A DNA stretch of 2,827 nt from the sequence record FN395000.1; one strand, written 5' to 3'. Source of the DNA: Enterobacteria phage CUS-3. Of the stretch, positions 1-2,827 are shown in pieces. The position numbers were made by a program, and so were the translations under genes. The notes beneath the pieces are model-generated. The model was not told the origin of the DNA, searched no databases, and was given only the letters and a program-made list of their open reading frames with translations. Position 1 is the first letter of the stretch; each line of letters opens with the position of its first letter.

Positions 1-438
1 ATGGCACGCCCAACAAAGTATCAAGAGGCGTATGCCGAACAGGCACGCAAACTGTGCTTGCTGGGCTACACCGATGCAGAACTTGCTGATTTCTTTGAAG
101 TCAGTGAGTCAACTATTAACAAGTGGAAGCTTGATTATCCTGAGTTTTCGGAGTCCATAAAAAAGGGTAAGGCCGTCGCTGATGCAGAAGTTAGTGATCG
201 TCTTTATCAACGCGCTATGGGCTTCGTGGCTCCAGATATCGATATTCGTGTTATTGAAAACAGAATTGTCGAAACTCCGCTTGAGAAGTATTACCCGCCT
301 GATACAACCGCTGCCATTTTCTGGCTTAAGAACCGACAGAAGGATAAATGGCGCGACAAGGTTGATCACGAGCTAACAGGCAAAGACGGCGGCGCAATTC
401 AGATTGAAACATCACCGATGAGCACTCTATTCGGAAAA
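1..438 (+). CDS. Phage terminase small subunit-like protein (N-terminal HTH DNA-binding region); 3' end lies in the N run, and the six-frame track extends the frame to a TGA at 541-543 only through masked bases
   Basis: Frame-1 ORF starting at ATG 1, 146 visible codons with no stop. N-terminal 'YTDAELADFFEVSESTINKWK' resembles a helix-turn-helix. C-terminal 'AAIFWLKNRQKDKWRDK' is a basic W/K/R-rich motif I recall as typical of small terminase subunits. GC is about 50% by hand count. Family assignment is from memory, not a search. Confidence 0.6.
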
Positions 439-538
439 NNNNNNNNNNNNNNNNNNNNNNNNNNNNNNNNNNNNNNNNNNNNNNNNNNNNNNNNNNNNNN
501 NNNNNNNNNNNNNNNNNNNNNNNNNNNNNNNNNNNNNN
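439..538. other. Run of 100 N (masked sequence or assembly gap); hides the terS-like 3' end and the start of the downstream frame-2 ORF
   Basis: Directly visible. Exactly 100 N is a common placeholder for a gap of unknown length, so the true distance across this junction is uncertain. Confidence 1.
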
Positions 539-1762
539 TCTGAGCCATGTGTAAAATATTATGATGGCATTCTGTATCTGACGACCAGGGGGACATTAAG
601 TACTCAACCCGGTAGTTCATTGCACAGAAGCTCTGATTTAGGTACATCATGGAATTCTCTTCGCTTCCCAAATAATGTTCATCACTCAAACCTTCCTTTT
701 GCCAAAGTTGGCGATGAGCTGATTATTTTTGGCAGTGAGCGCGCATTTGGTGAGTGGGAAGGAGGAGAACCTGATAACCGTTATGCAGGAAACTATCCAA
801 GAACATTTATGACCAGAGTTAACGTCAATGAGTGGAGTCTGGATAATGTAGAGTGGGTTAATGTTACTGATCAGATTTATCAGGGCGGAATAGTTAACTC
901 TGCGGTTGGTGTTGGTTCAGTTTGTATCAAAGACAACTGGCTGTACTACATTTTCGGTGGGGAAGACTTTCTAAACCCATGGAGCATAGGGGATAACAAC
1001 AGAAAATATCCTTATGTTCACGATGGTCACNNNNNNNNNNNNNNNNNNNNNNNNNNNNNNNNNNNNNNNNNNNNNNNNNNNNNNNNNNNNNNNNNNNNNN
1101 NNNNNNNNNNNNNNNNNNNNNNNNNNNNNNNNNNNNNNNNNNNNNNNNNNNNNNNNNNNNNNNNNNNNNNNNNNNNNNNNNNNNNNNNNNNNNNNNNNNN
1201 NNNNNNNNNNNNNNNNNNNNNNNNNNNNNNNNNNNNNNNNNNNNNNNNNNNNNNNNNNNNNNNNNNNNNNNNNNNNNNNNNNNNNNNNNNNNNNNNNNNN
1301 NNNNNNNNNNNNNNNNNNNNNAGCGGCGGTGAAACAACGTCTTCAGCAGATGGTGCAATGATAACGTTGCATGGTTCCGGAAGCAGTACTCCACGTCGCG
1401 CGGTATATAACGCACTCGAACATCTTTTTGAGAACGGAGATGTTAAACCTTATCTTGATAATGTAAATGCTCTTGGTGGTCCGGGAAACAGGTTCTCGAC
1501 AGTTTATCTTGGCTCCAATCCTGTGGTTACCAGTGACGGAACATTAAAGACAGAGCCGGTCTCTCCTGACGAAGCATTGCTGGATGCCTGGGGTGACGTC
1601 AGGTATATCGCTTATAAATGGCTGAACGCTGTCGCTATAAAGGGGGAAGAAGGGGCGAGGATACATCATGGTGTAATCGCGCAGCAACTTCGTGATGTTC
1701 TTATTTCTCACGGACTCATGGAAGAAGAAAGCACAACATGCCGCTATGCGTTTCTTTGCTAT
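539..1762 (+). CDS. Endosialidase (endo-N-acetylneuraminidase) tailspike, C-terminal portion: distal beta-propeller segment with Asp-box, masked stalk region, and C-terminal intramolecular chaperone domain; partial at both ends
   Basis: Frame 2 is open with no stop across both visible blocks (539-1030 and 1322-1762). The internal mask is 291 nt (97 codons), so the frame is preserved. Translation includes 'YYDGILYLTTRG', 'HRSSDLGTSWNS' (Asp-box) and 'WLYYIFGGEDF' upstream, and 'SDGTLKTEPVSPDEALLDAWGDVRYIAYKW...HHGVIAQQLRDVL' downstream. A frame-2 TGA at 419-421 prevents the ORF from extending upstream of 422. The 3' end is in the third N run. Confidence 0.75.
629..652 (+). other. Asp-box (BNR) sialidase motif S-S-D-L-G-T-S-W
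   Basis: Codons 629-652 in frame 2 encode SSDLGTSW, matching the S-x-D-x-G-x-[TS]-W Asp-box consensus found in sialidase beta-propellers. Confidence 0.6.
1031..1321. other. Run of 291 N inside the endosialidase frame (97 codons; frame preserved)
   Basis: Directly visible. Its length is a multiple of three and the same frame is open on both sides. Confidence 1.
1532..1762 (+). other. Peptidase S74-type C-terminal intramolecular chaperone domain (CIMCD) of the tailspike, with putative autoproteolytic Ser-Asp site at 1532-1537; domain continues into the mask
   Basis: 'S-D-G-T-L-K' followed by 'DVRYIAYKW' and 'HHGVIAQQL' matches the pattern of the endosialidase/tail-fibre self-cleaving chaperone domain (S|D-x-x-L-K ... 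Y-x-Y-K ... G-x-IAQ) as I recall it. Cleavage is expected between Ser (1532-1534) and Asp (1535-1537). Confidence 0.7.
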
Positions 1763-2179
1763 NNNNNNNNNNNNNNNNNNNNNNNNNNNNNNNNNNNNNN
1801 NNNNNNNNNNNNNNNNNNNNNNNNNNNNNNNNNNNNNNNNNNNNNNNNNNNNNNNNNNNNNNNNNNNNNNNNNNNNNNNNNNNNNNNNNNNNNNNNNNNN
1901 NNNNNNNNNNNNNNNNNNNNNNNNNNNNNNNNNNNNNNNNNNNNNNNNNNNNNNNNNNNNNNNNNNNNNNNNNNNNNNNNNNNNNNNNNNNNNNNNNNNN
2001 NNNNNNNNNNNNNNNNNNNNNNNNNNNNNNNNNNNNNNNNNNNNNNNNNNNNNNNNNNNNNNNNNNNNNNNNNNNNNNNNNNNNNNNNNNNNNNNNNNNN
2101 NNNNNNNNNNNNNNNNNNNNNNNNNNNNNNNNNNNNNNNNNNNNNNNNNNNNNNNNNNNNNNNNNNNNNNNNNNNNNNN
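1763..2179. other. Run of 417 N; expected to hide the tailspike 3' end and stop, the intergenic/promoter region, and the 5' end of neuO
   Basis: Directly visible. Its content is inferred only from the flanking genes. Confidence 1.
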
Positions 2180-2827
2180 ATGTCGTTTTCCGTTGATGAT
2201 AATGGATCAGGTAATATTTTTGTATGTGGAGATCTTGTAAATAGCAAAGAGAATAAAGTTCAGTTCAATGGAAACAATAACAAACTTATTATAGAAGATG
2301 ATGTTGAGTGTCGATGGCTTACCGTAATATTTAGGGGTGATAATAATTACGTAAGAATACATAAAAACAGTAAGATTAAAGGTGATATTGTCGCAACAAA
2401 AGGTTCAAAAGTTATTATCGGTAGAAGAACGACAATAGGTGCAGGTTTTGAAGTCGTCACTGATAAGTGCAATGTTACAATTGGCCATGACTGCATGATA
2501 GCAAGAGATGTTATTTTGCGTGCATCAGATGGGCATCCTATATTTGATATTCATAGCAAAAAAAGGATTAATTGGGCAAAAGATATCATTATATCTAGTT
2601 ACGTATGGGTAGGGAGAAATGTCTCTATAATGAAAGGGGTATCTGTTGGAAGCGGATCTGTCATTGGGTATGGGAGTATTGTAACTAAAGATGTGCCATC
2701 TATGTGTGCAGCAGCCGGTAATCCAGCAAAAATAATAAAAAGAAATATAATATGGGCAAGAACGGATAAAGCGGAGCTAATTAGTGATGACAAGAGATGC
2801 TCCAGCTATCATGCGAAGCTCACGCAA
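2180..2827 (+). CDS. neuO: Polysialic acid O-acetyltransferase NeuO (hexapeptide-repeat, left-handed beta-helix acyltransferase); no stop within the window, and the 5' boundary abuts masked sequence
   Basis: Frame-2 ORF from ATG 2180 with 216 codons and no stop to the window end. Hexapeptide-repeat signatures: 'IGAGFEVVTDKCNVTIGHDCMIARDVILRASDGHPIF' and 'VWVGRNVSIMKGVSVGSGSVIGYGSIVTKDVPSMCAAAGNPAKIIK'. GC is clearly lower than upstream (about 30-43% in hand-counted 60-nt lines). Lies immediately downstream of an endosialidase gene, as I recall for neuO in the K1 prophage CUS-3. Counting from this Met puts His at 119 and Trp at 143, the residue numbers I recall being reported as catalytic in NeuO. 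Confidence 0.85.
   Translation, partial: MSFSVDDNGSGNIFVCGDLVNSKENKVQFNGNNNKLIIEDDVECRWLTVIFRGDNNYVRIHKNSKIKGDIVATKGSKVIIGRRTTIGAGFEVVTDKCNVTIGHDCMIARDVILRASDGHPIFDIHSKKRINWAKDIIISSYVWVGRNVSIMKGVSVGSGSVIGYGSIVTKDVPSMCAAAGNPAKIIKRNIIWARTDKAELISDDKRCSSYHAKLTQ

What the first reader, a model, noticed from the sequence alone, without database searches (positions are those of the whole stretch)
1..1030. terS-like gene directly upstream of an N-terminally truncated endosialidase tailspike
The endosialidase frame (frame 2) has a TGA at 419-421 inside the terS-like ORF, so the tailspike ORF cannot begin before 422. At most about 39 masked codons precede the visible distal-propeller sequence at 539. 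A complete endosialidase tailspike carries a capsid-binding N-terminal domain and a full six-bladed beta-propeller, several hundred residues more than fit here. In P22-like phages the small terminase gene is also not adjacent to the tailspike gene. The possibilities are: (a) a deletion or recombination scar in a degraded prophage that keeps only the tailspike C-terminus and neuO; (b) a mosaic junction, for example a satellite or defective element combining a packaging gene with receptor-modifying cargo; or (c) an artefact, if the 100-N run is a gap of unknown real length.
Basis: partly seen in the sequence, partly recalled or inferred. Interest (0 to 1): 0.6.

Follow-up and report, generated by a model that had tools for sequence, protein, structure and literature searches.

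The report
Database concatenation artefact, not a truncated tailspike
The window is a typing record that strings together four separately sequenced pieces of the well-known E. coli K1 prophage CUS-3 with runs of N, so the small-terminase gene only appears to sit next to a shortened tailspike; in real genomes they are 18-21 kb apart and the tailspike is full length.

Summary
The literal observations hold. There is a terS ORF at 1-438, a 100-N run at 439-538, a frame-2 TGA at 419-421, and distal endosialidase beta-propeller sequence from 539. The adjacency and the truncation are not real. The window has the same layout (2827 nt, same fragment ends, same N runs) as 17 GenBank records (FN394218 and 16 in FN394986-FN395002) titled 'Enterobacteria phage CUS-3 partial proviral terminase gene, siaK1 gene and neuO gene, genotype GT_x', whose CDSs are flagged partial. 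On the complete CUS-3 genome (CP000711), the 100 N stand for 18,254 bp: terL, portal, scaffold, coat, head-completion and injection genes, mnt, ant, and the first 486 codons of a 981-aa tailspike. The figure is 18,558 bp in two complete chromosomes. Sister record FN394994 is 100% identical to the finished genome of its own strain, IMT5155, where the same 100 N stand for 20,754 bp. The other two N runs (291, 417) equal the true spacing. The phase-variable heptanucleotide tract of neuO was cut out between 2182 and 2183. All genes are already known. Interest is very low.

The parts
1..438 (+). Fragment 1: complete small-terminase (terS) coding sequence of prophage CUS-3, 146 codons, without its stop codon. 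Base 438 is the A of the overlapping terL start (ATGA overlap).
   Evidence: Maps to CP000711 22705-22268(-), CDS 'phage terminase small subunit' 22265-22705, at 97.7% identity. It is 100% identical to FN394998. PHROG 309 terS, E=2e-68. The C-terminus matches Sf6 gp1, PDB 3HEF. In 60 of 60 listed E. coli genomes the match also touches a 'PBSX family phage terminase large subunit'.
439..538 (.). 100-N spacer of arbitrary length between unlinked fragments. It stands for 18,254 bp in CUS-3 of RS218, 18,558 bp in PA45B and UPEC129, and 20,754 bp in IMT5155.
   Evidence: Identical N-run coordinates in the three sister records read (FN394998, FN394994, FN394218). The flanking CDSs are flagged partial in those records.
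539..1030 (+). Fragment 2: codons 487-650 of the 981-aa endosialidase tailspike gene siaK1 (distal part of the catalytic beta-propeller), trimmed in frame.
   Evidence: 100% identical at DNA and protein level to CP000711 4013-3522, SiaK1 residues 487-650. Pfam PF12217 positions 192-355/367. Matches K1F endoNF, PDB 1V0E, chain positions 336-499.
1031..1321 (.). 291-N run that replaces exactly 291 unsequenced bases (97 codons) inside siaK1.
   Evidence: The spacing between fragments 2 and 3 is 291 nt in CP000711, PA45B, UPEC129, phiv205-1 and IMT5155.
1322..1762 (+). Fragment 3: codons 748-894 of siaK1 (end of the tailspike stalk domain plus the start of the C-terminal intramolecular chaperone domain).
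   Evidence: Maps to CP000711 3230-2790 at 99.1% identity. Pfam End_tail_spike 91-160/160 and Peptidase_S74 1-58/58.
1763..2179 (.). 417-N run that replaces exactly the 417 bases from codon 895 of siaK1 through the intergenic region to the neuO ATG.
   Evidence: CP000711 2789-2373 is 417 nt, ending just before the ATG at 2372-2370.
2180..2827 (+). Fragment 4: neuO (polysialic acid O-acetyltransferase) from its ATG to its last sense codon. The phase-variable AAGACTC repeat tract has been removed, so there is an artificial join between 2182 and 2183.
   Evidence: 2183-2827 maps to CP000711 2236-1592 at 99.5% identity; 133 nt (19 repeats) are missing after the ATG. The missing length is 140, 35, 126 and 126 nt in PA45B, UPEC129, phiv205-1 and IMT5155. 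The protein matches NeuO crystal structure 3JQY, E=1.6e-142. No tandem repeat is found in the window.

Best explanation
The window is a concatenated multi-locus typing record of the P22-like E. coli K1 prophage CUS-3, not a contiguous piece of genome. Four codon-trimmed sequenced fragments were pasted in genome order with N spacers: the whole terS ORF, two internal pieces of the endosialidase tailspike gene siaK1, and neuO without its repeat tract. The first spacer (100 N) is a placeholder for about 18-21 kb: the whole virion-assembly operon, the immI region (mnt, ant) and the 5' half of siaK1. The other two spacers carry the true lengths. In the real prophage the order is terS-terL-portal-scaffold-coat-head completion-injection proteins-(accessory genes)-mnt/arc-ant-siaK1-neuO-int-attL at a tRNA-Arg gene. 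The tailspike is a complete 981-982-aa protein with a P22-type head-binding domain. No terS-tailspike junction exists, so no mechanism needs explaining. Shown: the mapping, the distances, the shared record layout and the domain content. Inferred: that the window is itself a member of that GenBank series, possibly FN395000, which is absent from the collection. Also inferred: that the fragments came from separate PCR amplicons, since the source paper (probably Mordhorst et al. 2009) could not be read.
For:: 17 GenBank records (FN394218 and 16 in FN394986-FN395002) of exactly 2827 nt match the window end to end in 4 pieces at 98.2-99.9% identity; the three records read are titled 'partial proviral terminase gene, siaK1 gene and neuO gene, genotype GT_n', with CDSs at 1-438, 539-1030, 1322-1762 and 2180-2827 flagged incomplete; the N-run coordinates are identical in the window and these three records; on complete CUS-3 (CP000711) terS maps to 22705-22268 and the first sia fragment to 4013-3522, so they are 18,254 bp apart, with 18 other annotated CDSs and siaK1 codons 1-486 in between; the separation is 18,558 bp in the PA45B and UPEC129 chromosomes, where the tailspike CDS is an intact 2949 nt; sister record FN394994 (strain IMT_5155) is 100% identical in all four fragments to the finished IMT5155 chromosome, where its 100 N span 20,754 bp; full-length CUS-3 SiaK1 has Head_binding, End_N_terminal, the complete End_beta_propel (1-367), End_beta_barrel, End_tail_spike and Peptidase_S74; the window fragment is residues 487-650; the best place in any of 5,426 complete E. 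coli genomes starts at window 539 (56% of the window). A place holding all four fragments (71%) would rank above it, and only the FN records do so among 50,697 phage records; terL directly follows terS in all 60 listed genomes.
Against: The window's own accession and source paper could not be retrieved: FN395000 is not in the collection, the paper is not held and no paper cites the accessions. The statement that this particular record is a concatenation therefore rests on its identical layout to sister records, not on its own header. Only fragments were sequenced for the source strain, so the true distance in that strain is unknown.
Confidence: 0.97

Rival explanations
1. (a) A real deletion or recombination scar in a degraded CUS-3 prophage removed everything between terS and the middle of siaK1, leaving terS next to the tailspike C-terminus and neuO.
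For: Only the literal reading of the 100 N as 100 bases. Disrupted CUS-3 tailspikes do exist: an IS66 element sits inside siaK1 in IMT5155 and phiv205-1.
Against: The same 100-N run at the same coordinates appears in the sister records read, from different strains and genotypes. For one of them the finished genome shows 20,754 bp there. Fragment ends are codon-trimmed gene pieces: fragment 1 stops exactly at the last terS sense codon and fragment 2 starts exactly at a codon boundary. In none of 5,426 complete E. coli genomes are terS, both sia fragments and neuO joined in one place. The known disruption is an IS insertion after about 71 codons, not a fusion to terS.
Confidence: 0.01
2. (b) A genuine mosaic element, such as a satellite or defective phage, that combines a packaging gene with receptor-modifying cargo (tailspike C-terminus plus neuO).
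For: None beyond the apparent adjacency. P22-like phages are mosaic, and the window's terS allele differs by about 2% from that of CUS-3 prophages with identical sia and neuO fragments.
Against: The evidence against (a) applies here too. In addition, all complete genomes examined carry the whole P22-like virion module between the two genes. The allele difference is ordinary module exchange among P22-like prophages.
Confidence: 0.01
3. The N runs are masking applied to a contiguous sequence (lengths preserved), so all three hide real bases of the stated length.
For: Two of the three runs (291 and 417) do equal the true genomic spacing.
Against: The first run does not: it is 100 N against 18,254-20,754 bp. 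The sister GenBank records carry the same Ns in the public deposit. A further 35-140 nt are missing with no N at all between 2182 and 2183.
Confidence: 0.01

Closest known systems
GenBank records FN394218 and 16 of FN394986-FN395002 (Enterobacteria phage CUS-3 partial proviral terminase, siaK1 and neuO genes, genotypes GT_1 to GT_n)
   Same: Same length (2827 nt) and four aligned pieces at 98.2-99.9% identity for all 17. Same fragment boundaries, N-run coordinates and annotation in the three records read. FN394998 differs at only 3 positions (1500, 1574, 1750).
   Different: No listed record is 100% identical, so the window is a further genotype of the series. FN395000 is the one accession in the range that is absent from the collection.
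Prophage CUS-3 of E. coli K1 RS218, complete genome CP000711 (P22-like, Lederbergvirus)
   Same: All four fragments map to it at 97.7-100% identity in the same order and orientation. The genes are the same: terS, siaK1, neuO.
   Different: In the genome the fragments span 21.1 kb (22705 to 1592). The terS allele differs at 10 of 438 positions. neuO carries 19 AAGACTC repeats that the window lacks.
Endosialidase tailspikes of K1 phages (K1F endoNF, PDB 1V0E/3GVK; phi92 endosialidase, PDB 4HIZ)
   Same: Window 539-1030 aligns over all 164 residues to the beta-propeller of these structures, E=1e-80 to 1e-83. The C-terminal chaperone domain is present in fragment 3.
   Different: CUS-3 SiaK1 uses a P22-type head-binding domain (PF09008) at its N-terminus. 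From established knowledge of K1F, that phage instead uses a T7-type adaptor domain.
Sf6 gp1 small terminase (PDB 3HEF, 4DYC)
   Same: The C-terminal 38 residues are nearly identical. The size is similar (146 vs 140 aa), and so is the position upstream of terL.
   Different: phmmer detects no similarity in the N-terminal 108 residues, which by established knowledge of Sf6 gp1 hold the DNA-binding and oligomerisation regions. The best family match is PHROG 309.

Membership tests
Concatenated multi-locus typing record (CUS-3 genotype series FN3942xx/FN3949xx-FN3950xx) | Same total length, fragment boundaries and N-run coordinates as the series | tested here: met
   All 17 records are 2827 nt and align 1-2827 in 4 pieces. 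N runs at 439-538, 1031-1321 and 1763-2179 are identical in FN394998, FN394994 and FN394218.
Concatenated multi-locus typing record (CUS-3 genotype series FN3942xx/FN3949xx-FN3950xx) | Fragments are non-contiguous in the source genome | tested here: met
   The terS and sia fragments are 18,254 bp apart (CP000711), 18,558 bp apart (PA45B, UPEC129) and 20,754 bp apart (IMT5155, the same strain as FN394994).
Concatenated multi-locus typing record (CUS-3 genotype series FN3942xx/FN3949xx-FN3950xx) | The window's own header or accession names it as such | not testable with these tools
   The window carries no header. FN395000 is absent from the collection. The source paper is not held.
Phage small terminase (terS), Sf6/CUS-3 type | Sequence match to a terS family profile | tested here: met
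   PHROG 309, E=2.1e-68, covering residues 1-142. The C-terminus matches Sf6 gp1 structures. There is no Pfam hit.
Phage small terminase (terS), Sf6/CUS-3 type | Gene immediately upstream of, and overlapping, the large terminase gene | tested here: met
   CP000711: terS 22265-22705, terL 20853-22268. The same arrangement is seen in PA45B, UPEC129 and IMT5155 and in 60 of 60 listed genomes. This is seen in the genomes, not in the window itself.
Phage small terminase (terS), Sf6/CUS-3 type | N-terminal helix-turn-helix DNA-binding domain and ring oligomer | not tested
   The only hint is a weak match to the IS630-transposase N-terminal region at residues 17-48 (E=0.0066, below cutoff). No structure was predicted.
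Endosialidase tailspike (endoN) | Catalytic six-bladed beta-propeller (PF12217) with inserted beta-barrel | tested here: met
   The window holds profile positions 192-355 of 367. The full CUS-3 protein holds 1-367 plus End_beta_barrel. The missing part was not sequenced; it is not absent from the gene.
Endosialidase tailspike (endoN) | N-terminal capsid or tail attachment domain | tested here: met
   It is not in the window. It is present in the genomic gene: Head_binding PF09008 at residues 1-113, E=5e-66. Intact 982-aa CDSs are annotated in PA45B and UPEC129.
Endosialidase tailspike (endoN) | C-terminal intramolecular chaperone domain (Peptidase_S74) | tested here: met
   Window 1322-1762 gives PF13884 positions 1-58/58, E=8e-12.
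NeuO polysialic acid O-acetyltransferase | Left-handed beta-helix hexapeptide acyltransferase nearly identical to the crystallised NeuO | tested here: met
   PDB 3JQY, E=1.6e-142, with one mismatch in 215 aligned residues. Pfam Hexapep.
NeuO polysialic acid O-acetyltransferase | 5' AAGACTC heptanucleotide repeat tract that gives phase variation | tested here: not met
   The tract is absent from the window because it was excised from the record. It is present with 5-20 copies at the corresponding site in all five genomes compared. This reflects record editing, not the gene.
Degraded prophage or satellite with a terS-tailspike fusion junction | Contiguous sequence across a terS-tailspike junction | tested here: not met
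   No junction sequence exists in the window, only Ns. No complete E. coli genome or phage record joins all four fragments in one place, apart from the FN series.

The most novel reading that the evidence does not exclude
The source strain of this record might carry a rearranged CUS-3 in which terS really lies close to the distal half of siaK1. Only fragments were sequenced, so this cannot be formally excluded. A milder version is that this genotype is a recombinant: it pairs a terS allele typical of other P22-like prophages (99.5% identity) with ST95-type sia and neuO alleles (100% identity).
Probability: 0.01. Interest if true: 0.2.

Novelty: not a real feature. Interest (0 to 1): 0.03.

Why it matters
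It matters only for data hygiene. Concatenated typing records with N spacers sit in phage sequence collections labelled as phage sequence, and a scan that reads N runs as sized gaps will report false gene adjacencies and false truncations. The underlying biology has been known since 2005-2007 (from memory; the dates were not checked with the tools). That biology is prophage CUS-3, its endosialidase tailspike and the phase-variable capsule O-acetyltransferase NeuO.

Tried and rejected
I looked for the source paper and the record's own accession. No paper cites FN394986, FN394218, FN395002 or FN394998. Mordhorst et al. 2009 (PMID 19671077, cited in PMC13001214) is not held. FN395000 is not in the phage collection. 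A further paper search for the typing scheme found nothing useful.

Pfam and NCBIfam gave no significant family for terS. PHROGs and the PDB sequence search settled its identity.

I looked for non-coding features in the window and found none: Rfam at gathering threshold, tRNAs and tandem repeats all gave zero hits. Minus-strand ORFs are short or run through Ns.

I tried to measure terS-to-tailspike distances across many genomes by crossing the top 60 hits of each fragment. The two lists barely overlap, because the terS allele is widespread in other P22-like prophages (634 genomes against 185). I therefore measured distances directly in four complete sequences.

I considered that the Ns might be length-preserving masking. 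That holds for two runs but not for the 100-N run.

I did not use the structure prediction, large protein database, metagenome or genome-contig tools, because the question was settled without them.

Full report
**What is in the window**

The 2827-nt window holds four stretches of real sequence: 1-438, 539-1030, 1322-1762 and 2180-2827. They are separated by three N runs of 100, 291 and 417 bases.

- The ORF at 1-438 starts with ATG and runs into the Ns.
- The translation of 539-1030 matches the distal half of the endosialidase catalytic beta-propeller: Pfam PF12217 positions 192-355 of 367, E=1.6e-104.
- 1322-1762 matches the end of the endosialidase stalk domain plus the C-terminal chaperone domain.
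- 2180-2827 is a hexapeptide acetyltransferase and is nearly identical to the crystallised NeuO, PDB 3JQY, E=1.6e-142.
- The ORF at 1-438 has no Pfam hit. It matches PHROG 309 'terminase small subunit' at E=2e-68, and its last 38 residues are nearly identical to Sf6 gp1 small terminase, PDB 3HEF/4DYC.

**What the window is**

A megablast of the whole window against the phage collection returned 17 GenBank records: FN394218 and 16 in the range FN394986-FN395002. Each is exactly 2827 nt and matches the window from base 1 to base 2827 in four pieces at 98.2-99.9% identity.

The three records I read are titled 'Enterobacteria phage CUS-3 partial proviral terminase gene, siaK1 gene and neuO gene, genotype GT_n'. 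They annotate four CDSs at exactly 1-438, 539-1030, 1322-1762 and 2180-2827, and every one is flagged incomplete. Their N runs have the same coordinates as the window's, and FN394998 differs from the window at only three bases.

The window is thus one genotype of a multi-locus typing series for prophage CUS-3 in E. coli K1 strains. The series most likely belongs to Mordhorst et al. 2009, which is cited in PMC13001214. I could not read that paper, so the attribution is inference. FN395000, the only accession in the range missing from the collection, may be the window's own record.

**True genomic arrangement**

On the complete CUS-3 genome (CP000711, 40,207 bp) the four fragments map to the minus strand as follows:

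| Window | CP000711 | Identity |
|---|---|---|
| 1-438 | 22705-22268 | 97.7% |
| 539-1030 | 4013-3522 | 100% |
| 1322-1762 | 3230-2790 | 99.1% |
| 2183-2827 | 2236-1592 | 99.5% |

The terS CDS is 22265-22705, so fragment 1 is the entire ORF minus its stop codon. The siaK1 CDS is 2526-5471 (981 aa), so fragment 2 is codons 487-650, confirmed at 164/164 identical residues. Fragment 3 is codons 748-894.

The 100 N therefore stand for 18,254 bp. That stretch contains terL, portal, scaffold, coat, head-completion and head-assembly genes, the injection and DNA-transfer genes, hkcB, two hypothetical genes, two mnt genes, ant, and the first 486 codons of siaK1.

In the complete chromosomes of PA45B and UPEC129 the same interval is 18,558 bp, and the tailspike CDS is an intact 2949 nt.

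The full-length CUS-3 tailspike carries every expected domain:
- P22-type Head_binding, residues 1-113
- End_N_terminal
- the complete propeller, profile positions 1-367, with its inserted beta-barrel
- End_tail_spike
- Peptidase_S74

**Direct control with a sister record**

FN394994 comes from strain IMT_5155, whose finished chromosome (NZ_CP005930.1) is in the E. coli collection. All four fragments of FN394994 are 100% identical to that chromosome. Its identical 100-N run spans 20,754 bp there.

The 100 N are thus a fixed placeholder that does not depend on the real distance. The same placeholder stands for 18,254, 18,558 and 20,754 bp across the genomes compared.

**The other spacers**

The 291-N run equals the real spacing between the two sia fragments in all five genomes compared. 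The 417-N run equals the real distance from the end of fragment 3 to the neuO ATG.

There is one hidden edit. In genomes the neuO ATG is followed by 'TT' and then 5-20 copies of AAGACTC, which is the phase-variation tract described in PMC13001214. In the window the ATG at 2180-2182 is joined directly to the sequence after the repeats. The missing length is 133 nt in RS218, 140 in PA45B, 35 in UPEC129, and 126 in both phiv205-1 and IMT5155. Tandem Repeats Finder finds no repeat in the window.

**Does the adjacency exist anywhere?**

Apparently not. In 5,426 complete E. coli genomes the best place starts at window 539 and covers 56% of the window. A place holding all four fragments would cover 71% and rank first, and none does. 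Among 50,697 phage records, only the FN series joins them.

The terS fragment occurs in 634 genomes. In all 60 listed, the match also touches the large-terminase gene, which overlaps the terS stop.

**Verdict**

The apparent 'terS directly upstream of an N-terminally truncated endosialidase' is an artefact of reading a concatenated database record as contiguous DNA. Options (a) and (b) have no support.

The TGA-in-frame-2 argument and the '39 codons' limit are arithmetically right. They are meaningless here, because the reading frame across an arbitrary spacer is arbitrary.

All three genes and the prophage are already well characterised. The feature is not real and interest is minimal. I found no RNA family, tRNA or repeat feature in the window.

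**Side observations**

Truly disrupted CUS-3 tailspikes do exist. In IMT5155 and in phage phiv205-1 an IS66-family element (tnpA/tnpB/tnpC) splits siaK1 after about 71 codons, inside the head-binding domain. A typing record of this kind cannot show such an insertion.

The window's terS allele is 100% identical to that of FN394998 and 99.5% identical to prophages in several other E. coli genomes. It is only 97.7-97.9% identical to terS in the CUS-3 prophages whose sia and neuO fragments are 99.1-100% identical to the window. This is ordinary module mosaicism among P22-like phages.

Noticed in passing
window 2180-2185 (join between 2182 and 2183): The neuO start codon is fused directly to the sequence that follows the repeats. 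The phase-variable AAGACTC tract (5-20 copies, 35-140 nt, in the five genomes compared) has been removed without any N, so the neuO ORF in the window is an edited, always-in-frame version.
   Followed up: yes
window 1031-1321 and 1763-2179: Unlike the 100-N run, these two N runs (291 and 417) equal the true genomic spacing in CP000711, PA45B, UPEC129, phiv205-1 and IMT5155. Within one record, some N runs are sized and one is not.
   Followed up: yes
L009 (NZ_CP005930.1 IMT5155) 3497-8892; L005 (MN340231 phiv205-1) 16093-21488: An IS66-family element (tnpA, tnpB, tnpC) is inserted in siaK1 after about 71 codons, inside the head-binding domain. It leaves a tailspike pseudogene in two pieces next to an in-frame (18-repeat) neuO. 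Several other genomes annotate the gene as 'endosialidase catalytic beta-propeller domain-containing protein' rather than 'phage tailspike protein', and one has an IS3 element there (H40).
   Followed up: partly
window 1-438: The terS allele is 100% identical to FN394998 and 99.5% identical to prophages in strains such as SB0258h1 and YZLc1-3. It is only 97.7-97.9% identical to terS of the CUS-3 prophages (RS218, PA45B, UPEC129, IMT5155) whose sia and neuO fragments are 99.1-100% identical to the window. This suggests module exchange among P22-like prophages.
   Followed up: partly
window 325-438 (terS residues 109-146): The C-terminal 38 residues are nearly identical to Sf6 gp1 small terminase (PDB 3HEF, 4DYC), while phmmer detects no similarity in the N-terminal 108 residues. 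terS itself looks like a mosaic with a conserved C-terminal segment.
   Followed up: no
L003 15295-16761; L009 10643-12099: Between the injection genes and the mnt/arc-ant region, CUS-3-type prophages in PA45B, UPEC129 and IMT5155 carry a Panacea-domain protein gene and a ClpP-like protease gene. These are absent from the annotation of CP000711 (RS218), so this is a variable accessory region inside the interval hidden by the 100 N.
   Followed up: no
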